Source: Trypanosoma brucei
Lineage: Eukaryota
DNA: 64,000 nucleotides
Assembly (NCBI GenBank): GCA_000002445.1
Contig: CM000208.1
Coordinates: 2,048,001 to 2,112,000, forward strand
Reading direction: 5' to 3'
Part shown: piece by piece, positions 1 through 63,868 of the stretch
How the letters are laid out: the number at the start of each line of letters is the position of its first letter
Position numbering within the stretch: the first letter of the stretch is position 1
Position numbers and translations under genes: made by a program
Notes under the pieces: generated by a model
Told to the model about the DNA's origin: nothing
What the model saw: only the letters and a program-made list of their open reading frames with translations
Database searches by the model: none

Positions 1-98
1 GCAGTAGGAAGAGACTGGGGGTGCAATTCTGCTTTATTAAAAATCTTTTCTCAAAAACTTTCACAGTCGTCTCCTCTGTTTCTTTCAAAAAAAAAAAG

Positions 99-11264: not shown

Positions 11265-11676
11265 GCGAGCCTGGCTCTTTGTCTTCTTGCCGGTTCAGCA
11301 TTCCCCTGTCCCCAGGACAGGCGATAAAAGAAACAGGAGCCAATGAGATACAGTTGTGCCACAATTTCCCCTACTTTGTCTTGATTTCGTGTGAAGGGGG
11401 TTTCTGGTTGCGTCGTGTGTGTATGTTCGTTGACAATGTAGTCAGTTGGAAGCAAGGGGAGGTGAGTCGCATCTTTGTATATTTTCTGGTGTTTTCCGCG
11501 TTCTTGTCGTGAACACGTTGATTTTTGGGAAACATTAGCAAAGCGAGTGAGAAAGGCTCTGGAATGTGTCGCCATAGTTCCCATTAATACCGCCACTCGA
11601 TATGGTCAATGCCGCACTGTCGTTCATTATTTTTACCTTCCATCGTTTTTTTGTGCCTCTCTCTGGAGCTGTAGGT

Positions 11677-13758: not shown

Positions 13759-14871
13759 CAAGGGATGGCATAACTTGTGTTTACCTGTTAACGAATCTTA
13801 GTTCAATCACAGGACGAAATGTATTTACGTCTCCACCCCCCTTTTTTAACTTCTGATAACTCACCTTCTGTTGGTCCACTATGTAGCGTTGATGTTTATT
13901 GGAGGTGTATTATGGCGGCTGATTGTACCGGCTAAGACAGCGGGAAGAATGGTGGAACACATGCACTGGTGCACACGTGCATACCAAATTTACACAACAT
14001 AGGGAGGGGATGATGGGGTTAACTTCATCAAATTGTTCTTACCATGACAGAAGATTTCGTAGATCTTAACGGGCGAGGGAGGGGAAATCAACGTTTAAAT
14101 CACAAAGGGAGGGAGAATGTATACGCAAAGGTGTTTAGTTGTATCGGGCACTGACAACGCAACGCCTTCGTGTAGTCTTCTTCGGTAATATTTCCAGGCA
14201 CTACGGGGGTTCCTGCAATGGTGGCGCTCCCTTTTGCATTGAGAGAGGATGGCACTCTTTGGGGTTACACCGTGCTCGGCACGCTACCACTATTGTCGTT
14301 TGCAGCTGGGTTGTGCTCAGAAGAAATTGGTTGCATGTCCGTGGATTAGTGCGTTCATGCGGCCGATCTCTTTTTTTTCTTTTGTGCCCGACGTTGTCAT
14401 GGGCCCCTGGTAAGGGGGAACGCTTTTCTGACCTCGGTGCGCAATACACCTCCTGAGTTTTCTGGGATGTGATGTGCTCTAGGGACTCGGGGATGAGCGA
14501 AGGAGTGACTGTGCTGGCCTTGGGGAGGGTGTAGGTAGAGGAGGAGGGTGCGGTAGGGCTTTGTGAGTCTACCCATGTTCCTGTTTGTGGCGATGGGATT
14601 CGGCCGCTCACCTGAGATCTCTGTATCTCTTTTTCTTTACTCACCTCCCGTCGCGTGTGATCGTTAGTTTAGCGGAGATTTTGTTTGTTTTACATATTTA
14701 CACCGTACCCCTTTTGGCACTGCTCTCGCTAACTTGTTGTTTTTTCCTTGCTGCTGCTTCCGACACCGTTGTGTATGATTTCGGCTTTTTGATCCCTTAC
14801 ATTTTGAATTTAGATACGGGTCTGTGTTTCGTGTTGGGGGTGGCTTTTCAGAAGATCGGGGGGCCAGTGAC

Positions 14872-20800: not shown

Positions 20801-22170
20801 GTATTTTTGTTTCTATAGAGAGAAGAATACGTGAACAGATTAGTGGAATGTCATCGTTGGCATTGCAGTTGGTAAGCCCTAAACTGCACCAAAACGGGAG
20901 AAACTTGTCATTGGTTGTGCCAGGTCAGTACAGGGAGGACGGAAACTATCCCCTGATTGCTTCCTTTCAGAATGTTCTGAAGGTGCTTAACTCAAAACAG
21001 CGGCCTCGGCGTATTTACATCAACGGGTCGAATGGCGAGATCTACAAGTTCTTGCTGAAGGGTCATGAGGATCTACGTTTGGATGAAAGGGTTATGCAGT
21101 TACTTGGGTTTGTCAACACTATTCTTGAGAAGCATTCGGTTGCAAAGCGCCATGACTGCCTTATCCAGACGTACTCAGTCACCCCTCTTAGCGATAATGC
21201 TGGACTGGTAGGTTGGGTGGACCACTGCGACACACTGAACAAAATCATTGAGGATTATAGAGTGAATCCCAGGTGTATTAGGATGGAGCTTGACCTTATG
21301 AGAAGTATGTGTGACAATCTGTACTATCTTACCGCCATTCAACGTGTGGAGCCGTTTGAGTTTGCGTTGGAGCGAACTGAGGGAGTGGATCTCGTTCGCT
21401 CCTTCTGGGTGAAAGCTCCCAGCGCGGAGACGTGGCTTGAGAGGAGGACGACATACGTTTGCTCACTCGCCACCATGTCTATGGTGGGGCATATATTAGG
21501 ACTGGGTGACCGTCACCCTTCAAACCTTATGATACACGCATTTAGCGGGAGAGTGGTGCACATTGACTTCGGCGACTGCTTTGAAGTGGCGCAGCAGCGA
21601 AGCATTCACCCTGAAAAGGTACCGTTTCGACTTACTCGTATGTTGGTTAAGGCAATGGAAATGGGGGGAATAGAAGGTCTCTTTCGGCATGGGTGTCACA
21701 CAGTGATGAATGTTTTGCGTGAAGAGGGTGGTAGTCTCTTAGCATTACTTGAGGCATTTGTTCACGACCCCTTGGTGTCTTGGTGGCGTGATGAGGCTGA
21801 GGGTTTTAGTGGGAACGGCCAAGCCGCTTCATCGGTACAAACAATCTCGGTTATAGGCTCCATGACGAACGTTGCTGAGGAGGACAGCGTGGGGAGTCTG
21901 CAGTTGTCACAGTTGTCGGTGCAACGGCGAGCAACCACTCAGCAGCGCGTGAATGCCAACATCGAAAAGGACACTAGTCAGACTCGCAAACCTAAAAGTG
22001 TCGTCAAACGTATTAAAAGGAAGTTAAGGGGTCTGGAGTTTCCTCAATCACAGGAGGGTAAGGGCAGCGATGGTTTTACAGTGGAGGAACAAGTGTCGAG
22101 GTTGATTGAAGAAGCAACTTCTAACGAAAACCTTTGCGTTCACTTCCTCGGGTGGTGCCCTTTCTGGTAG
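14872..22170 (+). CDS. TOR1: TOR (target of rapamycin) PIKK-family serine/threonine kinase; probably TOR1
   Basis: 2432-aa protein from the Met at 14872 (MEGCAHP…) within ORF 14824..22170. The PI3K/PI4K catalytic motif GLGDRHPSNLMIHAFSGRVVHIDFGDCFEVAQQRSIHPEKVPFRLTRMLVKAMEMGGIEGLFRH is nearly identical to the mTOR catalytic loop and DFG region. HEAT/FAT-like helical repeats lie upstream. A FATC tail ends …LCVHFLGWCPFW. Position immediately upstream of RPS12 and the THT array matches my memory of the T. brucei chr10 TOR1 locus. Confidence 0.85.
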   Translation: MEGCAHPLTSQLQPIFSELHSGKLATLSSTISKLENVLKDQGDGFFQSNSECQSREANLRLSVWISSQIGQLFRRPETQRAAILCVKTLLDVEYEAINNLDQTFLRLLEDSVKCADMSVSRMAAEVWGLWLNNSGTSTEGIAQSRLKICFADLRESDKVMDKVAACLFLEELLKRTPSTVAPLLDVVAECLHPAVLSSSDLVQASAATALRYVLLLMYTSMNPSGIKKWYETFLSASLDALRSGAPERRTGAIRCFNAVMSSVTSNVSACDTAVTFSETSVAHVHEIWEYVSEQVTLTSTLELRRELLQSLTILALYDTEAFKRMSIAKVVEAASGVFQTPTEKDLEPLVFQTLGKLAGVMPDQIVTFLGCSMRHIEEVLKQGRHDACGLGAIACVAAFAEVNPRAVRPYLRQILAPILSGSLTVDFAKGVARICAAFPELRSTCLSKILEVAKKQLRDDRCNAGGAGALCDGGVSPAAQILSALSNLEFAGYPTLPFLCDTAVAYVSVPNGEVRRAAIKLCFKLVLSGCLGPQSPCRQTSDGVVIHSGCEHTQLFNKVIKKLVNAAVADPESDIRLDTLRNFTEEFDHTLALRDVVRSLFPALHDKHQNRLAVVRLLGRVSRRNPAHVYPMLRRIMVQCVTEMQYFEHAKKQEQAFSVLGAIIESAPGLGKPYISSLLNMCAARLSDGTREADVCAALLSCVGKLVRYAEGDDIRVCARIRPIVVQHILDSSHLPKKREALRALGDIVRTTKDVNVYEDHAELLPVLLQALHGGFKELWPVRKDVLQLMGIIGAVDPVRVKEILRGSRVNNNTKLVPFLPFEGEDTIAQTVVRSVLHILSLPSLTEDQSVAAVQVIVGIFSLEVLSPGCLVSFYGEVISSIQKQARVQVRKREEILVHLISLVRILKGHLRPHLKEITSTVDSFISATDLSVLRQVLALLKELCCSLREEFRPYMSSLLGPIIVLVEENVEETSEIVLDFFSAMGSLLEDHLHTVLPVVCNIIVDTSVPSRCRIVAVKTLICFTKRLPDLCFHASRCVHCLCRVLRESDGGDGVGDEGRLGFSAMEALCTLAGSLGKNFENFVLVVLPAVADRYGETSGEYCRFCHDIYEAIDGKRAPEVSSNGVGKAGGGGAPSLPFTAGTSASPLKDRADAYASLRFHLRKRDQASDEDWNHWLPQLAVNLLRSSSSPSHGRALTLAELHEPFARQMLHSAFAACYADMDEHTQREVVGLLTEVLRGLRVPSEVMQELLNLSEHMERQGIRLSAGGKASIKHSSNFCPFDRQVLMESSANCNLYSKALHYAEIEFFETVREYERSILRGCPKPLPVKDWQNLIKLCEKSIYFCNLLGQRESANGILKFIRQNLPLLTGKKVTELSQMMDAHLFDKLRWWSQSLQAYERRLQQEPNKVSNMVGLLRALDALGEYPRVLEMWRQFSKRVSKREVSKLASMGAHAAWLLRRWDDMEHITSFMSDEDYTGTTALFYKATLAARKKRFREAEKLIDMCRKRVDSKLSALVAESYDRAYDLFVGIQQLSELEELAMATSDPQSAMHWRQLWERRLSVMAYEGWPGTLANHTLLVPPSSEIDMWLRFVSLSRAHGQGSVSTEVLRELLGNQSIESAIENGIPTPAVAMGSFQHLYETNQRDSAIARLQLYVSKVEGSGAQHVSREREDMAVCHAKLAEWLVHQKKAHRTEDELQKIFHHLRRATELDKSNGSIWRTLARVHREAATKPADGSDSSGASGHIMEALSAYLRSVSLSEELEDALGFLSLWFMYGPLLAVQVGSTLKEEIEEVNPTVWLKVIPQIIARISSPNGTVADSVYNLLVLVARRHPQAILYSLNVAHSSYQGKGTADGVEPLKGSHRVLARIAEIHQNGKAMVEDSALVCRELVRCAVLWPELWINELGRALYQWERQRSAENLLLAMGPLLEQLKRPETMAEAQFAAELRQPLENACCHVERAVSSRHEQFMEEARRIFVSIERRIREQISGMSSLALQLVSPKLHQNGRNLSLVVPGQYREDGNYPLIASFQNVLKVLNSKQRPRRIYINGSNGEIYKFLLKGHEDLRLDERVMQLLGFVNTILEKHSVAKRHDCLIQTYSVTPLSDNAGLVGWVDHCDTLNKIIEDYRVNPRCIRMELDLMRSMCDNLYYLTAIQRVEPFEFALERTEGVDLVRSFWVKAPSAETWLERRTTYVCSLATMSMVGHILGLGDRHPSNLMIHAFSGRVVHIDFGDCFEVAQQRSIHPEKVPFRLTRMLVKAMEMGGIEGLFRHGCHTVMNVLREEGGSLLALLEAFVHDPLVSWWRDEAEGFSGNGQAASSVQTISVIGSMTNVAEEDSVGSLQLSQLSVQRRATTQQRVNANIEKDTSQTRKPKSVVKRIKRKLRGLEFPQSQEGKGSDGFTVEEQVSRLIEEATSNENLCVHFLGWCPFW

Positions 22171-24418: not shown

Positions 24419-26002
24419 ATGACTGAGCGTCGTGATAACGTTTCCCACGCACCTGATGCCATCGAGGGCCCAAACGATGGTGCTCACGCCGAGGACACAT
24501 CGCCGGGTTTCTTCTCATTCGAAAATCTTGGTGTGGCGCAGGTACAAGTCGTCGGAGGAACTCTGAACGGATATGTTATTGGGTATGTTGCTGTGTATTT
24601 GCTGCTGTACCTGACGGCAACTGAGTGCAAATTTACTACGGAGGGTGCATGTGGCGGAGCTAAGATATATGGGTGCAAATGGAGCGGCACGACATGCAAA
24701 TTCGAGAATCCCAAATGTAGTGAAGGCTCCGATCCTTCCGATTCTTGCAAAAACGAGGTGGCCTACACGTCTGTTTACAGCGGTATCTTTGCCTGCGCCA
24801 TGATCGTTGGTTCAATGGTTGGGTCGATTATAGCCGGGAAGTGCATCACTACGTTTGGACTGAAGAAATCATTCATCATTGTCTCAGTCACCTGTACTAT
24901 AGCTTGTGTTGTGGTGCAGGTAGCGATTGAGTACAATAATTACTACGCACTGTGCACTGGACGAGTGCTCATAGGTCTCGGCGTTGGTATTTTATGCTCT
25001 GTTTGCCCCATGTATGTGAATGAGAACGCACATCCCAAACTCTGCAAGATGGACGGTGTGTTGTTTCAGGTGTTCACAACACTTGGCATTATGCTTGCCG
25101 CGATGCTGGGTCTGATTTTGGACAAAACAGGAGCTAGTAAAGAAGAGGCAAACATGGCTGGGCGGTTACACGTTTTTTCAGCGGTACCGCTTGGATTGTC
25201 CGTCGCCATGTTCCTAGTGGGCATGTTCCTCCGCGAAAGCACTGCAACATTTTCCCAAGACGATGATGGTAAGGCTGATGGCGGAATGGACCCCAACGAG
25301 TATGGCTGGGGGCAGATGTTGTGGCCACTGTTCATGGGCGCTGTAACCGCTGGTACGCTGCAACTGACTGGGATCAACGCGGTAATGAACTATGCGCCGA
25401 AGATTACAGAGAACCTCGGAATGGATCCATCACTTGGCAACTTTCTGGTTATGGCATGGAATTTTGTGACATCCCTTGCGGCTATTCCACTTGCGTCACG
25501 CTTTACGATGCGTCAAATGTTTATCACCTGTTCCTTTGTTGCGTCATGTATGTGCTTGTTCCTATGTGGAATCCCAGTGTTCCCCGGTGTTGCTGAAGAA
25601 AAGGTGAAGAATGGTGTGGCAACTACTGGTATCGCCCTGTTCATAGCTGCATTTGAGTTTGGTGTTGGGTCGTGCTTCTTCGTGCTTGCACAGGACCTTT
25701 TCCCACCATCATTCCGACCTAAGGGCGGTTCGTTTGTTGTCATGATGCAGTTTATCTTTAACATCCTTATTAACCTATTGTATCCCATTACAACCGAAGC
25801 TATATCTGGTGGGCCAACTGCCAACCAGGACAAGGGACAGGCCGTTGCATTCATACTGTTTGGTTTAATTGGCTTGATTTGTTCGGTTCTGCAGTTCTTT
25901 TACTTGTATCCATATGATGCCAATCAGGACCATGAGAATGACCATGGTGGTGAGCCTGTGGAACAGAAGACATATCCCGTTGAAGCATCTCCGCGGAACT
26001 AA
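24419..26002 (+). CDS. THT1: Hexose (glucose) transporter THT1-type, MFS sugar porter, array copy 1
   Basis: 527 aa. The N-terminus MTERRDNVSHAPDAIEGPNDGAHAEDTSPGFFSFENLGVAQVQVVGGTLNGYVIGYVAVYLLLY and the Cys-rich first exofacial loop match the T. brucei THT1 isoform as I recall it. Twelve hydrophobic TM segments are evident. C-terminus …HGGEPVEQKTYPVEASPRN. Confidence 0.85.
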   Translation: MTERRDNVSHAPDAIEGPNDGAHAEDTSPGFFSFENLGVAQVQVVGGTLNGYVIGYVAVYLLLYLTATECKFTTEGACGGAKIYGCKWSGTTCKFENPKCSEGSDPSDSCKNEVAYTSVYSGIFACAMIVGSMVGSIIAGKCITTFGLKKSFIIVSVTCTIACVVVQVAIEYNNYYALCTGRVLIGLGVGILCSVCPMYVNENAHPKLCKMDGVLFQVFTTLGIMLAAMLGLILDKTGASKEEANMAGRLHVFSAVPLGLSVAMFLVGMFLRESTATFSQDDDGKADGGMDPNEYGWGQMLWPLFMGAVTAGTLQLTGINAVMNYAPKITENLGMDPSLGNFLVMAWNFVTSLAAIPLASRFTMRQMFITCSFVASCMCLFLCGIPVFPGVAEEKVKNGVATTGIALFIAAFEFGVGSCFFVLAQDLFPPSFRPKGGSFVVMMQFIFNILINLLYPITTEAISGGPTANQDKGQAVAFILFGLIGLICSVLQFFYLYPYDANQDHENDHGGEPVEQKTYPVEASPRN

Positions 26003-26807: not shown

Positions 26808-28394
26808 ATGACTGAGCGTCGTGATAACGTTTCCCACGCACCTGATGCCATCGAGGGCCCAAACGATGGTGCTCACGCCGAGGACACATCACCGGGTTTC
26901 TTCTCATTCGAGAATCTTGGTGTGGCGCAAGTACAAGTCGTCGGAGGAACTCTGAACGGATATGTTATTGGGTATGTTGCTGTGTATTTGCTGCTGTACC
27001 TGACGGCAACTGAGTGCAAATTTACTACGGAGGTTGCATGTGGCGGAGCTAAGATATATGGGTGCAAATGGAGCGGCACGACATGCAAATTCGAGAATCC
27101 CAAATGTAGTGAAGGCTCCGATCCTTCCGATTCTTGCAAAAACGAGGTGGCCTACACGTCTGTTTACAGCGGTATCTTTGCCTGCGCCATGATCGTTGGT
27201 TCAATGGTTGGGTCGATTATAGCCGGGAAGTGCATCACTACGTTTGGACTGAAGAAATCATTTATCATTGTCTCAATCACTTGTACTATAGCTTGTGTTG
27301 TGGTGCAGGTAGCGATTGAGTACAATAATTACTACGCACTGTGCACTGGACGAGTGCTCATAGGTCTCGGCGTTGGTATTTTATGCTCTGTTTGCCCCAT
27401 GTATGTGAATGAGAACGCACATCCCAAACTCTGCAAGATGGACGGTGTGTTGTTTCAGGTGTTCACAACACTTGGCATTATGCTTGCCGCGATGCTGGGT
27501 CTGATTTTGGACAAAACAGGAGCTAGTAAAGAAGAGGCAAACATGGCTGGGCGGTTACACGTTTTTTCAGCGGTACCGCTTGGATTGTCCGTCGCCATGT
27601 TCCTAGTGGGCATGTTCCTCCGCGAAAGCACTGCAACATTTTCCCAAGACGATGATGGTAAGGCTGATGGCGGAATGGACCCCAACGAGTATGGCTGGGG
27701 GCAGATGTTGTGGCCACTGTTCATGGGCGCTGTAACCGCTGGTACGCTGCAGCTGACTGGGATCAACGCGGTAATGAACTATGCGCCGAAGATTACAGAG
27801 AACCTCGGAATGGATCCATCACTTGGCAACTTTCTGGTTATGGCATGGAATTTTGTGACATCCCTTGTGGCTATTCCACTTGCGTCACGCTTTACGATGC
27901 GTCAAATGTTTATCACCTGTTCCTTTGTTGCGTCATGTATGTGCTTGTTCCTATGTGGAATCCCAGTGTTCCCCGGTGTTGCTGAAGAAAAGGTGAAGAA
28001 TGGTGTGGCAACTACTGGTATCGCCCTGTTCATAGCTGCATTTGAGTTTGGTGTTGGGTCGTGCTTCTTCGTGCTTGCACAGGACCTTTTCCCACCATCA
28101 TTCCGACCTAAGGGCTCTTCGTTTGTTGTCATGATGCAGTTTATCTTTAACATCCTTATTAACCTATTGTATCCCATTACAACCGAAGCTATATCTGGTG
28201 GGCCAACCGGCGACCAGGATAAGGGACAGGCCGTTGTATTCATACTGTTTGGTTTAATTGGCTTGATTTGTTTCGTTCTGCAGTTCTTTTACTTGTATCC
28301 ATATGATGCCAATCAGGACCATGAGAATGACCATGGCACTGAGCCCGTGGAACGTATTGCTTCTCCCGTTGATGTCCCCACGCCGCGGAACTAA
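26808..28394 (+). CDS. THT1: Hexose transporter, chimeric: THT1-type N-terminal and first-loop region, THT2-type C-terminal ~70 aa and THT2-type 3' flank
   Basis: 528 aa. Identical to copy 1 through the THT1-type loop (…LTATECKFTTEVACGGAKIYGCKWSGTTCKFENPKCSEG…) apart from a few substitutions (G→V, V→I, A→V). From …KGSSFVVMMQ… to …HGTEPVERIASPVDVPTPRN it is identical to copy 3 (THT2). The downstream flank follows the copy-3 sequence, not the copy-1 sequence, from 'ggcgacgtaaccg' onward. Confidence 0.8.
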   Translation: MTERRDNVSHAPDAIEGPNDGAHAEDTSPGFFSFENLGVAQVQVVGGTLNGYVIGYVAVYLLLYLTATECKFTTEVACGGAKIYGCKWSGTTCKFENPKCSEGSDPSDSCKNEVAYTSVYSGIFACAMIVGSMVGSIIAGKCITTFGLKKSFIIVSITCTIACVVVQVAIEYNNYYALCTGRVLIGLGVGILCSVCPMYVNENAHPKLCKMDGVLFQVFTTLGIMLAAMLGLILDKTGASKEEANMAGRLHVFSAVPLGLSVAMFLVGMFLRESTATFSQDDDGKADGGMDPNEYGWGQMLWPLFMGAVTAGTLQLTGINAVMNYAPKITENLGMDPSLGNFLVMAWNFVTSLVAIPLASRFTMRQMFITCSFVASCMCLFLCGIPVFPGVAEEKVKNGVATTGIALFIAAFEFGVGSCFFVLAQDLFPPSFRPKGSSFVVMMQFIFNILINLLYPITTEAISGGPTGDQDKGQAVVFILFGLIGLICFVLQFFYLYPYDANQDHENDHGTEPVERIASPVDVPTPRN

Positions 28395-29369: not shown

Positions 29370-30959
29370 ATGACTGAGCGTCGTGATAACGTTTCCCACG
29401 CACCTGATGCCATCGAGGGCCCAAACGATGGTGCTCACGCCGAGGACACATCACCGGGTTTTTTCTCACTCGAGAATCTTGGTGTGGCGCAGGTACAAGT
29501 CGTCGGAGGAACTCTGAACGGATTTTCCATCGGCTTTGTTGCTGTGTACATCCTTCTCTATGAAGTGGCGACGAATTGTTCATTATTCAAGACTACGGAA
29601 GCGTGCAAGGCCGTGGGTTCTTATGGATGTGAGTGGAAGGATACGGAAGTGTGCTCATGGAAGAAGGAATGTGACTCCGATTCCGATGGTGTCAATCCAT
29701 GCGAAAGCCTTATTGGGTACAGCTCGCTTTACAGCGGTATCTTTGCTTCTGCCATGATCGTTGGTTCAATGGTTGGGTCGATTATAGCCGGGAAGTGCAT
29801 CACTATGTTTGGACTGAAGAAATCATTCATCATTGTTGGCGTCATGAGTGTTGTGGCGTCTGCACTGAACCACATATCCGTGGCAACGAATGAGTTTTGG
29901 GTTCTATGCGCTGGACGAGTGCTCATGGGTATCGGTCTCGGCGTTGTTTGCGTTATTTGCCCCATGTATGTGAATGAGAACGCACATCCCAAACTCTCTA
30001 AGGTGGACGGTGTGTTGTTTCAGGTGTTCATCACGTTTGGGATTATGCTTGCCGCGATGCTGGGTCTGATTTTGGACAAAACGGTTAACTATGATAATGA
30101 CCCCGACATGGCTGGGCGTTTTCACGGTTTTTGTGCAGTGTCATCCGTACTCTCCGTCGCCATGTTCCTAGTGGGCATGTTCCTCCGCGAAAGCACTGCA
30201 ACATTTTCCCAAGACGATGATGGTAAGGCTGATGGCGGAATGGACCCCAACGAGTATGGCTGGGGGCAGATGTTGTGGCCACTGTTCATGGGCGCTGTAA
30301 CCGCTGGTACGCTGCAGCTGACTGGGATCAACGCGGTAATGAACTATGCGCCGAAGATTACAGAGAACCTCGGAATGGACCCATCACTTGGCAACTTTCT
30401 GGTTATGGCATGGAATTTTGTGACATCCCTTGCGGCTATTCCACTTGCGTCACGCTTTACGATGCGTCAAATGTTTATCACCTGTTCCTTTGTTGCGTCA
30501 TGTATGTGCTTGTTCCTATGTGGAATCCCAGTGTTCCCCGGTGTTGCTGAAGAAAAGGTGAAGAATGGTGTGGCAACTACTGGTATCGCCCTGTTCATAG
30601 CTGCATTTGAGTTTGGTGTTGGGTCGTGCTTCTTCGTGCTTGCACAGGACCTTTTCCCACCATCATTCCGACCTAAGGGCTCTTCGTTTGTTGTCATGAT
30701 GCAGTTTATCTTTAACATCCTTATTAACCTATTGTATCCCATTACAACCGAAGCTATATCTGGTGGGCCAACCGGCGACCAGGATAAGGGACAGGCCGTT
30801 GTATTCATACTGTTTGGTTTAATTGGCTTGATTTGTTTCGTTCTGCAGTTCTTTTACTTGTATCCATATGATGCCAATCAGGACCATGAGAATGACCATG
30901 GCACTGAGCCCGTGGAACGTATTGCTTCTCCCGTTGATGTCCCCACGCCGCGGAACTAA
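29370..30959 (+). CDS. THT2: Hexose transporter THT2-type, MFS sugar porter, array copy 3
   Basis: 529 aa. Same leader peptide, then a divergent loop (NGFSIGFVAVYILLYEVATNCSLFKTTEACKAVGSYGCEWKDTEVCSWKKECDSDSDGVNPCES) and a different central loop (NYDNDPD), as in the THT2 isoform. The C-terminal half is identical to copy 2. Confidence 0.85.
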   Translation: MTERRDNVSHAPDAIEGPNDGAHAEDTSPGFFSLENLGVAQVQVVGGTLNGFSIGFVAVYILLYEVATNCSLFKTTEACKAVGSYGCEWKDTEVCSWKKECDSDSDGVNPCESLIGYSSLYSGIFASAMIVGSMVGSIIAGKCITMFGLKKSFIIVGVMSVVASALNHISVATNEFWVLCAGRVLMGIGLGVVCVICPMYVNENAHPKLSKVDGVLFQVFITFGIMLAAMLGLILDKTVNYDNDPDMAGRFHGFCAVSSVLSVAMFLVGMFLRESTATFSQDDDGKADGGMDPNEYGWGQMLWPLFMGAVTAGTLQLTGINAVMNYAPKITENLGMDPSLGNFLVMAWNFVTSLAAIPLASRFTMRQMFITCSFVASCMCLFLCGIPVFPGVAEEKVKNGVATTGIALFIAAFEFGVGSCFFVLAQDLFPPSFRPKGSSFVVMMQFIFNILINLLYPITTEAISGGPTGDQDKGQAVVFILFGLIGLICFVLQFFYLYPYDANQDHENDHGTEPVERIASPVDVPTPRN

Positions 30960-39044: not shown

Positions 39045-42000
39045 GTGCCCCCTCTTTCGTCTTTGCTATGGGGCCATGCGCACCCATATATAAAGGTGGC
39101 AATCCAAATCCAGAAGTGGGCACTTCCAAGGATGCAAAGTGGTGTGGGTAACATTACAACTCCCACGTCGCCGCAACAACTTGTTGTAGAAGCTCCTGCT
39201 GAACTCCTGGAAACCTGTGGAGTGCAGTATCCTGCGGCGGCTGATGTGAATGAGGGCGAGGTTGTGGATTCCAAAGCCCTTTCTGCAGCCCCCGGGGAAC
39301 GTGACGTCTTGGGATGTGGACCCACACTGCTGTCACTTTTATACAGCACCCAAAAGAAGGACGAAGTAGGGCATCGCGCAGTAACGCCAATGTTGTGGGA
39401 GTGCAACGGAGCTCAAGAAAGATGCCACTCATCGAAACGGGACTTTACAACATGTGTGAAGGCGCGGAAGTCCCCTCCTCCGGGCTCTGCAACGGGGTCT
39501 GGAACTGGGGCCATTAGGGATGTTCTCAGACCGTATAGAGAGTCACACAGTAAACGGTTTCGTGCGAAGGTAGTGGATTGCCGCGCGGCTCTTTCAGTAG
39601 ACGACCAAATCATCACCCTCAAAAACGAGAACGCTAAATATAAGGCTCAGTTACTCACCAAAGATGTGCAGCTGAAGGAGCTTGAGGCAGCACTTCGTGC
39701 GTTTCGAGCGCCGAGGGTTCCGGTTCCCTCGGGCGTGACAGAACCTGCTGAAGTAGGGGGGTGTTATAATGGCACGGACACTGAGGTGGCGCGTCTTACC
39801 AGAGAAAATGGTGAGGTGTGGAGGCGGCTGCAGCAATCACATGCCCAGTTGGCAGTCTGGAAAAGGGATGCACGGGTTTCGAAGTTGCAGGAGTTGAAGA
39901 TGGAGTTGGCTGTTTATCAGGCCGAAGTGGCTCGCCTCGCGGCTGAGGTTCCATCTAGTGGCGGCGCTGGAGGTGCACAAAATCACCCAGCTAGGTCGAA
40001 GTTACAGAGAGAAGCGGAGACTTCACGGGCAAAGGATCTCTTTATCGCTGAGCTAAAGGAAAGAGCGTCTGAGAACGCTACAGCACTGCGAAAATGCATG
40101 GACGACGCTATGCGCACAAAAAGTACCCTTGAGCAGGTCCGGGAGGAGAATGAGTTGATATCTAAGGAGTTGTGCTTGTTCAGAAAAACGGCCTTAGCTC
40201 TGACACGGGTGCAGGAGGAACTGAGGGCCACCCAGTGTGAGCTGGCTGAGGCTCGAGAGCGGCTTCAAGCCTTCGAACAGATGATGCACACGGTGGGAGG
40301 TCCTGAGGAGGTAAAGGCTGTGGTTAAGGAACGTGATGCCCTTTTGACCCTGTTAAAGCAGCATAATGCACGCGAAGCGGCATATCACCAGGAGTTTTTC
40401 ACCCGCCAGCGCGAAATGAAGGAGTCTATGGAGCGGTGCCTTCAGGAAGCTGTTCAACAAGAACGAGCACTGGCTCAGGATAGAGAGATGCAGCTTCGAC
40501 GCTCTTGCTTGATGTGGAAAGAAAGGTGCGAGCGACTGCTTCCAGACAAGTTGTTCGAACAGGGACGTCTTATAGAGGGTGGTGGAACCGTTGTAGAAGA
40601 TGAGGAACAGCAGACCGAGTTACACCAACTACCCAAGAAAATAGTAACCCCTTTCATGGATAATTCACAGAGGCAGCGGTTGCTTACAAAGCATATTGAC
40701 GATGTTCTAATCGTCCGGCAAGTCTCGTCGACGAGCACGCCGGCCAGTTCGTCAACCACTCTCTCCCCCGTGTCGGGTCTCTCGAAATTGTCCATAACCG
40801 ACACTACCCAGAGCCAAAGTAGCTCTCATGGCATGCAAATCAGCCACCCAGGGAACGAAGACGCATCTTCGCCTGTGAAGGGAAATGTAATGTCTTCACA
40901 GAAAGGGAGCTCTGGCGACGCTCCCGTTCCACCCACAGAGAGAACCGATCCCGACGGTGGCGCCGTTAGCTATCCAGCAAGCTCCGCCGTAATATCTGCA
41001 GAGCGGACTTCACTGGTTGAGAACAGCAAGGGCGATATCGTCACGTCGATTTCAACAGAGGAGGGTGCGGTTCAACTGCCTAGAGGACTGATGACCGCTG
41101 GTGTTGATTCTAGTGATGATTCAGGCAGCGAGTTGAGCGACCTTGCTGTGGGAATAGAGGAGGGCAAAACCCCATCATTTCGACTGCATGGCAATAGCGA
41201 TGGGCAATTAATCCCTGAAGTTGTCTCCAGGATGCCCTTAACTCTGCGCACGGTGAGCAGCGATGGCGTAGCTGCAGTTCTTACAGTTGCTTCACCACCT
41301 CCAAGAGTTTCTGTGCCACCGGCACCTGTCCCACGAGAATCTGCAGGATCTATTGCTTCATCTGAGAATAAACTCTCTGATGTGAATGTTGCCGTGCCAC
41401 CTCCAAGAGTTTCTGTGCCACCGGCACCTGTCCCACGAGAATCTGCAGGATCTATTGCTTCATCTGAGAATGAGCTCTCTGATGTGAATGTTGCCGTGCC
41501 ACCTCCGAGAGTTTCTGTGCCACCGGCACCTGTCCCACGAGAATCTGCAGGATCTATTGCTTCATCTGAGAATGAGCTCTCTGATGTGAATGTTGCCGTG
41601 CCACCTCCAAGAGTTTCTGTGCCACCGGCACCTGTCCCACGAGAATCTGCAGGATCTATTGCTTCATCTGAGAATGAGCTCTCTGATGTGAATGTTGCCG
41701 TGCCACCTCCGAGAGTTTCTGTGCCACCGGCACCTGTCCCACGAGAATCTGCAGGATCTATTGCTTCATCTGAGAATAAACTCTCTGATGTGAATGTTGC
41801 CGTGCCACCTCCAAGAGTTTCTGTGCCACCGGCACCTGTCCCACGAGAATCTGCAGGATCTATTGCTTCATCTGAGAATGAGCTCTCTGATGTGAATGTT
41901 GCCGTGCCACCTCCAAGAGTTTCTGTGCCACCGGCACCTGTCCCACGAGAATCTGCAGGATCTATTGCTTCATCTGAGAATAAACTCTCTGATGTGAATG

Positions 42001-42968
42001 TTGCCGTGCCACCTCCAAGAGTTTCTGTGCCACCGGCACCTGTCCCACGAGAATCTGCAGGATCTATTGCTTCATCTGAGAATAAACTCTCTGATGTGAA
42101 TGTTGCCGTGCCACCTCCAAGAGTTTCTGTGCCACCGGCACCTGTCCCACGAGAATCTGCAGGATCTATTGCTTCATCTGAGAATGAGCTCTCTGATGTG
42201 AATGTTGCCGTGCCACCTCCAAGAGTTTCTGTGCCACCGGCACCTGTCCCACGAGAATCTGCAGGATCTATTGCTTCATCTGAGAATGAGCTCTCTGATG
42301 TGAATGTTGCCGTGCCACCTCCGAGAGTTTCTGTGCCACCGGCACCTGTCCCACGAGAATCTGCAGGATCTATTGCTTCATCTGAGAATAAACTCTCTGA
42401 TGTGAATGTTGCCGTGCCACCTCCGAGAGTTTCTGTGCCACCGGCACCTGTCCCACGAGAATCTGCAGGATCTATTGCTTCATCTGAGAATAAACTCTCT
42501 GATGTGAATGTTGCCGTGCCACCTCCGAGAGTTTCTGTGCCACCGGCACCTGTCCCACGAGAATCTGCAGGATCTATTGCTTCATCTGAGAATAAACTCT
42601 CTGATGTGAATGTTGCCGTGCCACCTCCAAGAGTTTCTGTGCCACCGGCACCTGTCCCACGAGAATCTGCAGGATCTATTGCTTCATCTGAGAATGAGCT
42701 CTCTGATGTGAATGTTGCCGTGCCACCTCCAAGAGTTTCTGTGCCACCGGCACCTGTCCCACGAGAATCTGCAGGATCTATTGCTTCATCTGAGAATGAG
42801 CTCTCTGATGTGAATGTTGCCGTGCCACCTCCAAGAGTTTCTGTGCCACCGGCACCTGTCCCACGAGAATCTGCAGGATCTATTGCTTCATCTGAGAATA
42901 AACTCTCTGATGTGAATGTTGCCGTGCCACCTCCGAGAGTTTCTGTGCCACCGGCACCAGTTCCGTGA
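39045..42968 (+). CDS. Large repetitive protein: coiled-coil N-terminal region followed by ~16 tandem 34-aa Pro-rich repeats (consensus VAVPPPRVSVPPAPVPRESAGSIASSEN[K/E]LSDVN)
   Basis: 1307-aa ORF. Residues ~190–470 are heptad-rich (…ENAKYKAQLLTKDVQLKELEAALRAF…). From nt ~41290 the sequence is a 102-bp unit repeated head-to-tail to the stop at 42966, with only two variable sites per unit. The start codon is uncertain. Confidence 0.7.
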   Translation: MPPLSSLLWGHAHPYIKVAIQIQKWALPRMQSGVGNITTPTSPQQLVVEAPAELLETCGVQYPAAADVNEGEVVDSKALSAAPGERDVLGCGPTLLSLLYSTQKKDEVGHRAVTPMLWECNGAQERCHSSKRDFTTCVKARKSPPPGSATGSGTGAIRDVLRPYRESHSKRFRAKVVDCRAALSVDDQIITLKNENAKYKAQLLTKDVQLKELEAALRAFRAPRVPVPSGVTEPAEVGGCYNGTDTEVARLTRENGEVWRRLQQSHAQLAVWKRDARVSKLQELKMELAVYQAEVARLAAEVPSSGGAGGAQNHPARSKLQREAETSRAKDLFIAELKERASENATALRKCMDDAMRTKSTLEQVREENELISKELCLFRKTALALTRVQEELRATQCELAEARERLQAFEQMMHTVGGPEEVKAVVKERDALLTLLKQHNAREAAYHQEFFTRQREMKESMERCLQEAVQQERALAQDREMQLRRSCLMWKERCERLLPDKLFEQGRLIEGGGTVVEDEEQQTELHQLPKKIVTPFMDNSQRQRLLTKHIDDVLIVRQVSSTSTPASSSTTLSPVSGLSKLSITDTTQSQSSSHGMQISHPGNEDASSPVKGNVMSSQKGSSGDAPVPPTERTDPDGGAVSYPASSAVISAERTSLVENSKGDIVTSISTEEGAVQLPRGLMTAGVDSSDDSGSELSDLAVGIEEGKTPSFRLHGNSDGQLIPEVVSRMPLTLRTVSSDGVAAVLTVASPPPRVSVPPAPVPRESAGSIASSENKLSDVNVAVPPPRVSVPPAPVPRESAGSIASSENELSDVNVAVPPPRVSVPPAPVPRESAGSIASSENELSDVNVAVPPPRVSVPPAPVPRESAGSIASSENELSDVNVAVPPPRVSVPPAPVPRESAGSIASSENKLSDVNVAVPPPRVSVPPAPVPRESAGSIASSENELSDVNVAVPPPRVSVPPAPVPRESAGSIASSENKLSDVNVAVPPPRVSVPPAPVPRESAGSIASSENKLSDVNVAVPPPRVSVPPAPVPRESAGSIASSENELSDVNVAVPPPRVSVPPAPVPRESAGSIASSENELSDVNVAVPPPRVSVPPAPVPRESAGSIASSENKLSDVNVAVPPPRVSVPPAPVPRESAGSIASSENKLSDVNVAVPPPRVSVPPAPVPRESAGSIASSENKLSDVNVAVPPPRVSVPPAPVPRESAGSIASSENELSDVNVAVPPPRVSVPPAPVPRESAGSIASSENELSDVNVAVPPPRVSVPPAPVPRESAGSIASSENKLSDVNVAVPPPRVSVPPAPVP
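41290..42965 (+). repeat. 102-bp tandem repeat array (~16.4 units), in frame within the CDS above
   Basis: The unit 'ccacctccaagagtttctgtgccaccggcacctgtcccacgagaatctgcaggatctattgcttcatctgagaat[aaa/gag]ctctctgatgtgaatgttgccgtg' recurs exactly every 102 nt. Only aaa/gag and cca-aga/ccg-aga vary between units. Confidence 0.95.
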
Positions 42969-44488
42969 GAAGTACACCAGGTGACGATTTTGTTGTGTGT
43001 GTGTGTGGTTGCGTAGCGGTTGTGCATGGGCATTTCGCTATCGTTAAGGTTACTACGGCTTCTATTGAGTGAGTGCACACTTTTTTCATGCTTTTGGTAC
43101 GGCAAACATTTAGACTGTGAGGAAGGTTGCCATTAGTACTTGGTTCTTTGACGGTGCTGTGTTTCTACTCGTGGTGTATGGTGGAAGGTACCTGCTGCTT
43201 ACTTTTTCTTTGATGGGAAACAATCGCCACTGTAGGCGTCTTCCACTTTCAGTTTCCACATTGAATCGAACGGAATTAGTTTACTTCGCGATTCTTTTCG
43301 TTTGTAGAGTTATTTGTTTGACTTCTACTGTTATCCGTCCCCTGTGACTATCTCTAAATTTATGCACCTCCTTTTTGTCTTTTTTTTTTGCGGTCGCACA
43401 TGCGCTTTTCTTTGACACGTACGCGTATTGCCACCGCAGATGGGCACGTCAAGATGAGGTATGTGGTGTTCATATTCATAGAGTTCTTTGTGGTTGAGCG
43501 CCGCTATCGGTTGCAGTGTAAAGGATGCACAGTGGTGTCTGCTTTTATGCTTTGGATTTGTCCTGTCACTCGGCAATGAGTTTGTGCTTGTTTTTTTTCC
43601 TTCCGTCCATCTGGTACGTCGTTTATTTCTGCGCCATTCGTCATTATTATTCTTTAAAGTGCTGTGTGTGCACTTCGATATAATGGAGTACGGTATGCGA
43701 CGAAAGGGGGGGGTGGCGAGAGGAATCAATCCGGGGATACAGTTTTTAAAGTCATTTTTACCTATCGATTATTGATCATGTGTTACTCTGAAACACGTTG
43801 ACGCTCTGTTGCCTCATTTCCCGTTTGATTTTTTTCCCGCCATATTTATCGCAGCCGATAGTGGACACAATGTCGGCATGATTCACGTGTTTCTGCCGCA
43901 CTCTGATAAGCTAGTCGTGAACGTCGGTGTATGAGGCGTTTAAGTGTATGAGCAGGGGTCGGGAGGCGGTTCCGCTCCCGTTTTTCCAGTGTGTAGTTGC
44001 CTATATTGCTCTCCTCTACGGTATGGTGAAGCGCTTCCTTTGCTTGGAGGTCGGAGTGTGCGGTGTTTTGCCCCCCGTCTTGTTTGCGGTGCTGGCAGAG
44101 AAGCCGTTGATCTCCGCAAGGTGCCGTCGCACTCTGATGGTGGCAGTGGTGTAACCCAACCGAAGAAAAATTACCTGAAGTGCTGCATCTGCCGTTTTGA
44201 GCTGCAGCTTCGCCTTAGTTTACGGCATTCAGGAGTTACGGTGAGCTGATCGGGAAAGACAATGATGTGCTGGTACAGATTTTGCCACATTTGTGCATAC
44301 TTCCCCCTTGTGATGATATGCTTCTTGCTTGTACCCCTGCTTTTCCTTTTTTCATGTGGGACCACATCGCCTGGGAGATGATGCGTTAACCAACTTTCAC
44401 TTTCTTGTCTTAAAATTGAACCGCTACGTGACTTACTGTAAAGAGGATCAAGAGGTTGTGAAGGAGGATACAGTCACGAATAGCAGTT

Positions 44489-45781
44489 ATGTCAACAGGT
44501 CACCCCGTGGACTGTGTACCACTCCACCAGGCAGCCGAATCCTGCGACCCGGTTGCTAAGCTTTGCGCCTTCCTGATGGCAAAACGCGGATGGAGTCACC
44601 ACCGACTGGCGCAGGCGCTTGGGGTCCCCCCGCTTGTCCTGGAGGAATGCATTCGTAACGGCGTATCCTCAGGGGCGTTGCACGGGCGTTTAGCGCGATG
44701 GATCGCGGAGGGCGGCGGCGCCTCTTTGCCGCAAAGCCTGGTGCAGGCTGTTGTTCAGGCTCCGGCGGGAATTCTGTCGGGTAGCGACACACCGGAGAGC
44801 CAGTTGGATGGTGACCCACTTGCTGACCTGGACCCTGTCACCCGGGCGTATTTTGTGGAACTTGGGTCTAGCATTGGACAAAGCTTCATTTCTATTTTAA
44901 ACGATCCACGTCAAGCAAGGGACAATTTTAGGTGGGGCTCTTGGTTCGTTGGGATTGTGTCCAATGCTTTGGATCACAAGACCTACATGAAGCGGGCAGG
45001 GACTGTTACTAACGAGCAACCGTCGTCAGATACGTTGATGGCCAGGTATAATCAAAACTGGGACTACATGCCATATCTGCAACTTGTGTCAGGGACATTA
45101 AGTGAAAACAACAAAGGGGTGGAACCCTTGGCGAATGTTCCCGCGGCTACGCCACAACTCGGTTCCGTTCTGTCGTGCGCACTAAATGAAAACCTACCGT
45201 GGCCCCAGGGTGTGCCAGAGGAATTCTTTGACACATCGTACGATGCGGCCAACGAGCTCCGCCTTCTGGAGCGGGTAATTGAAGAACGAGGAGGAAGTAA
45301 GATAGATGAAGATGGAGTTCCGATCACCGCTACAACGTTCTCAGATGATTTTGAGGAGATTGAAAAGCGCATGAAGAAATTACGCGAGTGGGAAGGCGCG
45401 GTGGAGAGCTGCTTATTGCGTCATGTGCAGAGCCGTGCGGACCAGTTTTTCATCGTGTCGCAGGATTTCACGGATCGTGCTGGGGAGGCGCGCAGGGCTC
45501 TTGACGACCTTCAGCAAACAAGGGCGGATGTCGATGCCTATGGGACGGGTTTTGTCAGGGAGATGATGACGATCGCACAGAACTACCGCATTCGACATGG
45601 TTTGACTGCTTCCCGGGACTTGGCCGTGGGGATGATGGAGACACTCTCAGCGCTGTCAGTCAATGAAAACTGGATATCGCTTCCGGAGAGAGACATGACT
45701 GAGCTCCCAGCCGTGGTTGAAAACTATTGTGCCTTGTACAAAGCTTTATGGTGCGGGGCCGCCGCAGGGGCAGGTGAGGCC

Positions 45782-45819
<38 letters not shown>

Positions 45820-47758
45820 CTTCTCTGAGACTGGAAACTTCACGCGGGTGAGGGTGTTAAGGGATGTTCCCGAGCGGATGTTGCTGGCGAAAGAGAGTCT
45901 TCATAAAATGATCATGAGAGAAATTGAGCTCACTTTCAACCCGTTGCCAGGATCAGATGTGGAGGAAGGCCGCTTGTTGAGAGCGGTGAGAGCAGCGGGA
46001 GAAATGAATCTATTGCCAACCATCATTCACCAAAACCGGGAGCGACTGCCTGATATTATGTGGACGAACGCTCGAAGCGTGTTTGTGACGGGCATGATGG
46101 ACAGTGGTGCTGTGGGTGAGAAAGGAGCAAATTCTCTTCTGGAAGTCGCCGTGGCTGGTGACAGCTCACGTGAAGAGAAGTTATCACTCATTGGCCTGTC
46201 CGACTCGTGCCGCTTCCCCGCTTTTATGCGGATTTTTAGTGCGATCGCCGTTCAAATATCCCAGGCAGTGAGGCAGGCCTCTCGTTGTTGGGCTCTTCTC
46301 GTCGTTGGGGCTAGTGTGCGTTCCAGTTTCCGCGACGTTGGTGCTCATGATGGTGAGGAAAGTTTGTGGGATATGAGCAGGAGGAACTTAGTTGCGTTGT
46401 TCGCCGCGGCAGAGGGGACGGTTGCGCTGTTTTTGGAAGCGCGGTCACGGCCTTCGTGCGTCCCTACCAATGTGCACGATCTCGAGACACTTGTGAAGTC
46501 CGGGTACGATTTCATGCAGGGCATGGTCGCAGTATTTCACGACGTTGCGGCGATGGTTGGTGATTTAGGTGACCCCTGGAGCTGCCTTTCGGGTAAGCAG
46601 CTTAAAGCCGCTGTGGTGCGGCTCGGAAAGGAACACGTTCGGTCACGTCACGCGGCAAATATCGAAAGGATACGCCTGACGCTAGAGGGAGAGAAGTGGG
46701 TTCCGTGTGACTCAGATGCGGATTTTCAGTCCCGTGTTTCCGTAATATTTAATGGTGGTGACGAAGCCGTCAGCGCGCTGCGGGCGCTCATTGTTTTCAC
46801 CGATTTTAAGGACTCGCGCGAAACTCACCCCAGTTCGCCGAAGACGTGTCAGGAGATGGCAGTGGCTCCATCGAAGAAGCCAGATGCGGTACCGGATCTC
46901 AATTTTACGGCAGTCGGTGAGGGTAAGGTAAATAAGCCGTTTATATTACCTTCGTTGGGTGGACAATTCGATGGACGAGTGGTGAGTGTATCCCTGCAAA
47001 TACTTCTCGAGATGTTGCATGATTATGATGGCTACCTGGGTCGGTTCCCATTTCTTGCTTTTGACATCATGGGAAAGGTGTACGATCTCTTGAGGCTATA
47101 CAATTCACAGTGCGCTGCTCTCCTGCTAGGTGCGATGGCTGTGGAGACCGGTACCCTTGAATCTATCACCGTTCCACACATGGCTGTAGCTTCCCAGAAT
47201 CTTGCGCTGCTCTACGACGGTATTCCGCTCATGCAAAGGCGCTGGGAGAGGGTGGTTGATGGTGATAATTTGCCTTCCTCCATCTCAGAGGACCTAGAGC
47301 GTGTTCGCCAGGGTTGCCAGATGTGTCGTTTGGAACTACTGGGAAAAATAGCAGCACTTGTAAAGGAGAAGGTAGGGGTGCTTGCTGACACTGCTAGAAG
47401 AGAGTGGCAAGACGCCGGAAGCCCGTGGGTCATGACAACGCTACGAGAAACAGCCCGAGTCATGCACCTCCTAAACCCTCTTGTGCCCGTTAGCGACTGC
47501 CGTGGTGTTGTTGTGCCAATGTTAGGTACTTTTGCCCGTATGATGCGGACTGTGATGATGTCGCCTGATATTGACGAGGTGGAGCTTGGAGTCATGAGGT
47601 CGGATGTGCTTGTGTTTAAGGCCAATGTGGAGAGGTTCGGCTTTGATGTTATGCGTTGTATGGAGTTATGCGCGTCACCAACTGACGCCATGAAAGAATC
47701 AAAGGAGCCCTGCGCAACGGATGAAGCTGTCTTGGCATGGTTCTTTGGTCAGGCGTAG
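44489..47758 (+). CDS. Large conserved hypothetical protein (1089 aa) with an internal poly-Asn tract; possibly a helical tethering-complex-like subunit (speculative)
   Basis: Long clean ORF on the coding strand of the unit. An N13 run is encoded by (AAC)13 at 45782..45820. Amphipathic helical segments (…DDFEEIEKRMKKLREWEGAVESCLLRHVQSRADQFFIVSQDF…) are seen but no diagnostic catalytic motif. Confidence 0.6.
45782..45820 (+). repeat. (AAC)13 coding microsatellite giving poly-Asn
   Basis: Direct read: aacaacaac… ×13 inside ORF 44489..47758. Confidence 0.95.
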
Positions 47759-63822: not shown

Positions 63823-63868
63823 TGTGTGTGTGTGTGTTTGTGTTTGTGTTTGTGTTTGTGTTTGTTTA
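63823..63868. repeat. Compound (TG)n/(TGTT)n microsatellite
   Basis: tgtgtgtgtgtgtgtgtttgtgtttgtgtttgtgtttgtgtttgttt read directly. Confidence 0.9.

What the first reader, a model, noticed from the sequence alone, without database searches (positions are those of the whole stretch)
39045..42968. Protein ending in ~16 near-perfect 34-aa Pro-rich tandem repeats, with the stop codon immediately after the array
From about nt 41290 to the stop, a 102-bp unit (VAVPPPRVSVPPAPVPRESAGSIASSEN[K/E]LSDVN) is repeated head-to-tail. Only two nucleotide-level variable positions are found per unit (aaa/gag giving K/E, and a silent cca/ccg), arranged in a mosaic. Such nucleotide-level identity implies ongoing homogenisation by unequal crossing-over or gene conversion. 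This architecture (unique N-terminal coiled coil, then a large array of short identical repeats) is typical of trypanosomatid immunodominant repetitive antigens and cytoskeleton-associated repeat proteins. The ORF terminates inside the last repeat (…VSVPPAPVP*), so the true repeat number and C-terminus are probably under-represented. The repeats also create a 677-aa antisense ORF (41072..43105), which is an artefact.
Basis: partly seen in the sequence, partly recalled or inferred. Interest (0 to 1): 0.55.

Follow-up and report, generated by a model that had tools for sequence, protein, structure and literature searches.

The report
Known trypanosome flagellar repeat protein FTZC
The repeat-ending gene is FTZC, a Trypanosoma brucei flagellum-base protein first described in 2000 and used routinely as an antibody marker, so the repeat array is real but the finding is ordinary.

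Summary
A 102-bp (34-aa) unit is repeated head to tail: 16 full copies plus a 54-nt partial copy (41286-42971). Copies vary only at a silent CCA/CCG and at GAG/AAA (E/K). The gene is already known. [quoted passage not shown] Published FTZC qPCR primers match the unit 16 times each. FTZC is a standard antibody marker of the transition zone that survives detergent and salt extraction. The stop codon is not a truncation artefact: TGA replaces the unit's Arg17 codon (CGA) in a diverged last copy. The same ending occurs in T. b. gambiense DAL972 (7 units) and in the original clone AAF60169.1 (3 units). Copy number therefore differs between records, and I could not verify it. Orthologues exist only in the genus Trypanosoma. 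They share a central helical domain and carry one or two copies of a related Pro-rich motif, but none has the array. The antisense ORF is a by-product of the repeat. Immunodominance was not tested. Novelty: already known. Interest: low.

The parts
39132..42968 (+). FTZC coding sequence (Tb927.10.8590), 1278 aa plus TGA stop
   Evidence: The translation is identical to XP_823085.1/EAN78257.1 of T. b. brucei TREU927. It is 98% identical to the DAL972 protein over the unique part. The gene id comes from PMC4162612.
39045..39131 (+). In-frame stretch upstream of the real start; not coding (no ATG, opens with GTG after the stop at 39036)
   Evidence: All annotated T. brucei FTZC proteins begin MQSGVGN, which is the ATG at 39132.
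39537..40712 (+). Central helical, coiled-coil-like domain (aa 136-527); the part conserved across Trypanosoma orthologues
   Evidence: AlphaFold2 predicts helices at 136-153, 156-192, 217-271, 287-385, 391-481 and, with lower confidence, 490-527. 10-residue block pLDDT is 74-90 for most of aa 161-470, with low-confidence breaks near 190-215, 271-290 and 381-390, and every other region scores below 50. Most invariant alignment columns fall in this region.
40713..41285 (+). Ser/Thr-rich unique linker, predicted disordered, poorly conserved
41286..42917 (+). 16 full 102-bp / 34-aa units (VAVPPPRVSVPPAPVPRESAGSIASSEN[E/K]LSDVN)
   Evidence: The published FTZC qPCR primers AE400 and AE401 each match 16 times.
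42918..42971 (+). Diverged terminal partial unit. It holds the stop TGA (42966-42968) at the position of the unit's Arg17 codon CGA
   Evidence: The same junction is present in DAL972, and AAF60169.1 ends with the same residues.
42969..44488 (+). 3' UTR / intergenic region up to the Vps54 gene, T-rich, with no repeat remnant
41072..43105 (-). 677-aa antisense ORF, a by-product of the repeat and not a gene
   Evidence: The unit has no stop codon in exactly one antisense frame. Seventeen of the 19 ORFs of at least 250 aa in the window lie on the + strand.

Best explanation
This is the FTZC gene (flagellum transition zone component, Tb927.10.8590) of Trypanosoma brucei brucei TREU927, chromosome 10. 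It lies in the + strand polycistronic unit downstream of the sugar-transporter cluster and upstream of Vps54.

The protein has three parts: a disordered N-terminus, a conserved central alpha-helical (coiled-coil-like) domain of about 390 aa, and a disordered Ser-rich linker followed by a C-terminal array of 34-aa Pro/Val/Ser-rich units.

Shown by sequence here: identity with the annotated FTZC protein; conservation of the helical domain in eight Trypanosoma species and nowhere else; and the presence of the large array only in T. brucei.

Inferred: the helical domain provides oligomerisation and docking to the transition zone. The array is a flexible, extended appendage. It arose in the T. brucei lineage by amplification of an ancestral Pro-rich motif (V.VPPP...VP.PP) that is present in one or two copies in other species. 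Unequal crossing-over or gene conversion keeps it homogeneous, so copy number drifts between strains. The stop codon is a C->T change of the unit's Arg codon in the decayed last copy, so the protein truly ends ...VSVPPAPVP.
For: - Exact identity: the 1278-aa product equals XP_823085.1 'flagellum transition zone component [T. b. brucei TREU927]', on a contig of 4,054,025 bp.
- Related records: DAL972 is 98% identical over the unique part. The original clone AAF60169.1 has the same architecture.
- Gene id and primers: Tb927.10.8590 is named FTZC in PMC4162612. Its FTZC primers lie inside the unit and match 16 times each in the window.
- Synteny with DAL972: Roc-like, Arf-like, FTZC, Vps54.
- Localisation and biochemistry from papers: transition-zone marker; signal kept on NaCl-extracted flagella; puncta around transition-zone microtubules in expansion microscopy.
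- Distribution: an exhaustive HMMER search gave 8 proteins below 1e-30. Seven full-length orthologue representatives were named in T. brucei, T. rangeli, T. theileri, T. cruzi, T. grayi, T. congolense and T. vivax (T. conorhini came); the eighth is a T. cruzi fragment, and a ninth hit at 1.5e-10 was not identified. The following hits are weak (2.7e-9 and weaker), match only the helical region, and the one looked up is an unnamed JGI metagenome protein.
- Structure: confident helices only within aa 136-527; the repeats score pLDDT below 50.
- Origin of the unit: its best match in every orthologue lies in the same Pro-rich C-terminal region. The match beats all 500 composition-preserving shuffles in T. 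grayi (z 6.5), T. conorhini (z 5.0) and T. vivax (z 4.1). T. grayi has two tandem 41-aa copies that are 31/41 identical.
- Homogenisation: all four combinations of the two variable sites occur. A variant private to DAL972 has spread to 3 of its 7 units.
- Genuine C-terminus.
Against: - I could not read the founding paper (Bringaud et al. 2000, PMID 11163437). The published repeat number, protein size and knock-down phenotype are therefore unverified here.
- The roles assigned to the helical domain (targeting) and to the array (flexible appendage) are inference. No deletion analysis was found.
- Similarity of the unit to the orthologues' Pro-rich motif is only marginal in T. cruzi, T. rangeli and T. 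congolense, and absent in the partial T. theileri protein.
- A protein search with four repeat units returned nothing, not even the protein's own cluster, so it says nothing about other proteins carrying the unit.
Confidence: 0.95

Rival explanations
1. The array is mis-assembled. The real TREU927 gene has a different (probably larger) number of units, because near-identical 102-bp repeats collapse in shotgun assemblies.
For: Three records of the same gene give 16, 7 and 3 units. Units differ at only 3 nucleotides, so a 1.7-kb array offers few anchors.
Against: The irregular mosaic of four unit types does supply some anchors, and the window has no gap or N. Differences between subspecies could be real polymorphism. 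Both array junctions are the same in the two genome assemblies, and the C-terminus also matches the original clone, so only the count is in doubt, not the architecture or the C-terminus.
Confidence: 0.35
2. The array functions mainly as an immunodominant B-cell antigen or immune decoy, like other trypanosomatid tandem-repeat antigens.
For: The architecture matches that class: many identical short hydrophilic units. [quoted passage not shown] Rabbit antisera to FTZC work well.
Against: None of the held papers found with the term FTZC reports recognition by infection sera. The protein is intracellular, at the flagellum base. The array is absent from all other Trypanosoma orthologues, including other pathogens.
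Confidence: 0.15
3. The stop codon is a recent nonsense mutation or a sequencing error, and it truncates a protein that should continue into a conserved C-terminal tail.
For: T. cruzi, T. rangeli, T. conorhini, T. grayi and T. vivax orthologues all end in ...EDESFTVHHV(EL), which T. brucei lacks. The stop is one C->T step from the unit's CGA. The post-stop frame reads EVHQV, which faintly resembles TVHHV.
Against: The same TGA and downstream sequence occur in DAL972, and AAF60169.1 ends at the same residue. Alignments of the orthologue tails to all six frames of 42900-44480 score only 20-33 in every frame, with no in-frame match after the stop. The T. congolense orthologue also lacks the tail. 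The post-stop frame closes again after 15 codons.
Confidence: 0.03
4. The antisense 677-aa ORF (41072-43105) is the real gene.
For: It is long.
Against: It exists only because one antisense frame of the 34-codon unit has no stop. Roughly one 34-codon frame in five would be stop-free by chance (my estimate, (61/64)^34). Nearly all long ORFs in the window are on the + strand. The sense product is an exact match to a protein against which a working antiserum exists.
Confidence: 0.01

Closest known systems
FTZC, flagellum transition zone component of Trypanosoma brucei (Tb927.10.8590; XP_823085.1; original clone AAF60169.1; Bringaud et al. 2000, Mol Biochem Parasitol 111:283)
   Same: Identical protein sequence, same locus, same repeat unit and same C-terminus.
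   Different: Nothing differs: this is that gene. Only the number of units differs between records (16 in TREU927, 7 in DAL972, 3 in AAF60169.1).
FTZC orthologues in T. cruzi, T. rangeli, T. conorhini, T. grayi, T. theileri, T. vivax and T. congolense
   Same: A conserved central helical domain (29-33% overall identity for the three aligned, with many invariant columns) and a Pro-rich V.VPPP motif near the C-terminus.
   Different: None has a large array (one or two motif copies; two 41-aa copies in T. grayi). Five of the seven end in ...ESFTVHHV(EL), which T. brucei and T. congolense lack; the T. theileri record is partial.
Trypanosomatid cytoskeletal tandem-repeat antigens (for example GM6 of the flagellum attachment zone, MARP, T. 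cruzi FRA/CRA, Leishmania K39), named from my own knowledge
   Same: A unique domain joined to a long array of near-identical short units, with cytoskeleton or flagellum association.
   Different: The unit sequence is unrelated and was not compared here. Those proteins are documented serodiagnostic antigens, whereas no serology for FTZC was found.

Membership tests
FTZC (Trypanosoma flagellum transition zone component) | Sequence identity or orthology with the named T. brucei FTZC protein | tested here: met
   The exact sequence equals XP_823085.1/EAN78257.1. It clusters with DAL972 CBH15947.1 and AAF60169.1.
FTZC (Trypanosoma flagellum transition zone component) | Conserved central helical domain shared with the orthologues | tested here: met
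   Alignment A1 has many invariant columns between aa 134 and 500. Profile search E-values run from 0 to 1e-75 for Trypanosoma proteins. Helices are predicted at aa 136-527.
FTZC (Trypanosoma flagellum transition zone component) | Same chromosomal context as the annotated gene | tested here: met
   The order Roc-like, Arf-like, FTZC, Vps54 is found both in the window and in DAL972 locus L001.
FTZC (Trypanosoma flagellum transition zone component) | Published FTZC reagents match the sequence | tested here: met
   qPCR primers AE400 and AE401 from PMC4162612 Table S2 each match 16 times inside the array.
FTZC (Trypanosoma flagellum transition zone component) | Localisation to the flagellar transition zone, resistant to cytoskeleton extraction | not testable with these tools
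   Literature only.
Trypanosomatid immunodominant tandem-repeat antigens | Long array of near-identical short peptide units | tested here: met
   16 units of 34 aa, 98% nucleotide identity.
Trypanosomatid immunodominant tandem-repeat antigens | Recognition of the repeat by sera from infected hosts | not testable with these tools
   No paper reporting FTZC serology was found.

The most novel reading that the evidence does not exclude
The large array is a T. brucei-lineage innovation. An ancestral Pro-rich motif present in one or two copies was amplified to at least 16 units after the conserved C-terminal ...ESFTVHHV tail was lost. The resulting strain-variable length of a disordered, proline-rich appendage might tune transition-zone architecture, for example as a spacer or tether around the doublets. 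It might also explain why FTZC mRNA is the top coding target of the RNA-binding protein RBP33. The evolutionary part is reasonably supported here. The functional part is speculation.
Probability: 0.1. Interest if true: 0.35.

Novelty: already known. Interest (0 to 1): 0.08.

Why it matters
It matters little for discovery. FTZC has been a named, antibody-validated transition-zone marker since 2000, and its repetitive nature is in the title of the founding paper.

The useful outputs are corrections. The start codon is 39132. The C-terminus is genuine. The copy number in database records (16, 7, 3) should not be trusted without long reads.

There is also a modest evolutionary note. The array is specific to T. 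brucei. It appears to derive from a short Pro-rich motif conserved across the genus, while the conserved C-terminal tail of the other species is missing.

Tried and rejected
1. Remnant of the orthologues' conserved tail (...EDESFTVHHV) after the T. brucei stop. The post-stop frame reads EVHQVTILL, which looked suggestive. Alignment of four orthologue tails to all six frames of 42900-44480 gave only low scores (20-33) in every frame and no in-frame match after the stop. Rejected.

2. Decayed repeat units flanking the array at the DNA level. Local alignment of 200 nt on each side to the unit scored at the shuffle mean. None found.

3. The T. congolense C-terminus as a single-copy homologue of the unit. 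Not significant: 118-153 of 1000 shuffles scored as high.

4. Positive selection on the unique domain. pN/pS between TREU927 and DAL972 is 1.27, from only 12 nonsynonymous and 3 synonymous changes. Neighbouring genes give 0.57-1.18. Not distinctive.

5. Protein search with four repeat units. It gave zero hits, not even the protein's own cluster, so the negative is uninformative.

6. Pfam scan of the whole protein found no family.

7. The founding paper (PMID 11163437) and a review (PMC3821760) are not held. A paper search for an RNAi phenotype was unproductive.

8. One line ('3prime flank mismatches 0') came from a script bug, a comparison against an empty string, and is not used. One search is the correct comparison.
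Full report
**Observation**

Tandem Repeats Finder reports a single large array at 41295-42958: period 102, 16.3 copies, 98% matches, no indels. It lies inside a + strand ORF, 39045-42968.

Parsed in frame, the array has 16 complete 34-codon units (41286-42917) and a 17th partial unit. Units 2-16 vary only at unit position 18 (A/G, silent Pro codon) and at positions 85 and 87 (GAG or AAA, E or K). Unit 1 additionally reads VAS for VAV.

Three details need correcting:
- **Start codon.** 39045 is only the first codon after the upstream stop (39036) and is GTG. The first ATG is at 39132, and all annotated versions of the protein start there.
- **Stop codon.** The stop lies inside a diverged final copy. 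The unit reads GCA CCT GTC CCA CGA GAA, and the last copy reads GCA CCA GTT CCG TGA GAA. Similarity to the unit stops after that GAA.
- **Helical region.** It spans aa 136-527, not the extreme N-terminus.

**Identity**

A search with the unique part found T. b. gambiense DAL972 "flagellum transition zone component" at 98% identity, plus orthologues in T. rangeli, T. conorhini and T. theileri at 37-40%.

An exact-sequence look-up showed that the 1278-aa product from ATG 39132 is identical to XP_823085.1/EAN78257.1, [quoted passage not shown]. That record sits on a contig of 4,054,025 bp. The same 90% cluster holds AAF60169.1, the originally deposited FTZC.

PMC4162612 gives the gene id as Tb927.10.8590. 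Its FTZC qPCR primers, AE400 and AE401, lie inside the repeat unit and each match the window 16 times.

The neighbourhood fits a T. brucei polycistronic unit and matches the DAL972 locus. In order it contains:
- a HECT/SPRY ligase and a TOR kinase;
- three sugar transporters, a DnaJ protein, a Roc-like protein and an Arf-like GTPase;
- FTZC;
- Vps54.

Seventeen of the 19 ORFs of at least 250 aa are on the + strand.

**What is known about FTZC**

The papers I could read use the rabbit anti-FTZC serum of Bringaud et al. (2000) as the "well-established" marker of the flagellar transition zone. The signal persists on cytoskeletons extracted with detergent and on flagella extracted with 1 M NaCl. 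In expansion microscopy it resolves into puncta around the transition-zone microtubules. [quoted passage not shown]

The founding paper, whose title already calls it a "repetitive flagellum protein", is not held. I therefore could not check the published repeat number, the protein size or the knock-down phenotype.

**Anatomy and evolution**

AlphaFold2, run with the four-sequence alignment, predicts long helices at aa 136-527. Confidence is high (10-residue block pLDDT 74-90) for most of aa 161-470, with low-confidence breaks between the helices. Everything else, including the repeats, scores below 50, consistent with disorder. The array is 21% Pro, 18% Val and 18% Ser, with pI 4.8. The whole protein is predicted at 134.5 kDa, with about 3.4 kDa per unit.

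An exhaustive profile search of 1.84 billion representatives found only 8 proteins below 1e-30. Those I looked up are all from Trypanosoma: T. cruzi, T. grayi, T. congolense and T. vivax, in addition to the species found. One of the eight is a T. cruzi fragment, and a ninth hit at 1.5e-10 was not looked up. The next hits are weak (2.7e-9 and weaker) and match only the helical region; the one I looked up is an unnamed JGI metagenome protein. The family therefore appears restricted to the genus.

None of the orthologues has the array. The T. brucei unit nevertheless finds its best match at the same place in each of them, a Pro-rich V.VPPP...VP.PP motif in the C-terminal region. Against composition-preserving shuffles the matches are:
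- significant in T. grayi (z 6.5), T. conorhini (z 5.0) and T. vivax (z 4.1);
- marginal in T. cruzi, T. rangeli and T. congolense;
- absent in the partial T. theileri protein.

T. grayi carries two tandem 41-aa copies of the motif, 31/41 identical. I infer that the T. brucei array is a lineage-specific amplification of an ancestral motif.

Five orthologues end in ...EDESFTVHHV(EL). T. brucei and T. congolense lack this tail.

**Is the C-terminus real?**

DAL972 (7 units) and AAF60169.1 (3 units) both end ...VSVPPAPVP. At the DNA level, DAL972 and the window differ at only 4 of the first 472 nt counted from the start of the terminal unit. Both have the same TGA and the same downstream sequence.

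No remnant of the orthologue tail is detectable downstream in any frame, and no decayed units flank the array.

The copy number remains open. The three records disagree, and near-identical 102-bp units are prone to collapse in assembly.

**Homogenisation**

All four combinations of the two variable sites occur in the window, in an irregular order. DAL972 shares both variants but arranges them differently. It also carries a private CGA->CAA (R->Q) change in 3 of its 7 units. A new variant that has spread within one lineage's array, together with copy-number change, is the expected signature of unequal exchange or gene conversion.

**Antisense ORF**

The unit is free of stop codons in the sense frame and in exactly one antisense frame. 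Repeating the unit 16 times produces the 677-aa ORF.

**Mechanism**

Shown: the gene's identity, the conservation pattern, and the predicted helical-plus-disordered architecture.

From the literature: transition-zone localisation and resistance to extraction.

Inferred: the conserved helical domain oligomerises and docks the protein at the transition zone, and the array is a flexible proline-rich appendage whose length drifts by recombination. An antigenic or decoy role is possible but unsupported by any data I could find.

**Verdict**

This is a correct observation of an already known, well-used gene. Novelty: already known. Interest: low.

Noticed in passing
window 24419-26002, 26808-28394, 29370-30959 (+): Three tandem sugar-transporter genes (527-529 aa; Pfam Sugar_tr E 1e-106 to 1e-116). 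From my own knowledge this is presumably the end of the T. brucei THT glucose-transporter cluster. GC content drops to 0.43-0.47 across this stretch.
   Followed up: partly
window 45781-45820 (+), inside the Vps54 ORF 44489-47758: A perfect (CAA)13 microsatellite. In the ORF's frame it encodes a run of 13 Asn in the Vps54-like protein.
   Followed up: no
window 21-11264 and 14824-22170 (+): Two very large ORFs. One is a HECT/SPRY/Laminin_G_3 ubiquitin ligase of 3747 aa that opens near the window edge. The other is a TOR-type PI3K-related kinase of 2448 aa with FAT, FRB, kinase and FATC domains.
   Followed up: partly
FTZC mRNA (window 39132-42968): In PMC4162612 Table S1, FTZC is the most enriched bona fide coding mRNA bound by the RNA-binding protein RBP33 (log2FC 3.7), and it ranks low for translational efficiency (6270 and 6454 of 7782). 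The validating qPCR primers sit inside the repeat unit, so the array itself might be the bound or over-counted element.
   Followed up: partly
window 39132-41285 versus L001 5001-7154: The unique part of FTZC differs between TREU927 and DAL972 at 15 nt, 12 of them nonsynonymous (pN/pS about 1.27). The neighbouring Roc-like gene gives 1.18, and Arf-like and Vps54 give about 0.6. Counts are too small to call selection.
   Followed up: yes
orthologues P0002, P0003, P0007, P0008, P0010 (C-termini): A strongly conserved C-terminal motif...(E/D)EDESFTVHHV(EL), is shared by T. cruzi, T. rangeli, T. conorhini, T. grayi and T. vivax FTZC. It is missing in T. brucei and T. congolense. Its function is unknown.
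   Followed up: partly
window 11692-12483 (-): A second long antisense ORF (263 aa) lies opposite the legume-lectin-like gene at 11602-12561. It is the only other ORF of at least 250 aa on the - strand.
   Followed up: no
window 63823-63865: A (TGTTTG)7 microsatellite lies near the window end. A short (TG)n run at about 42994-43008 lies just after the FTZC stop.
   Followed up: no
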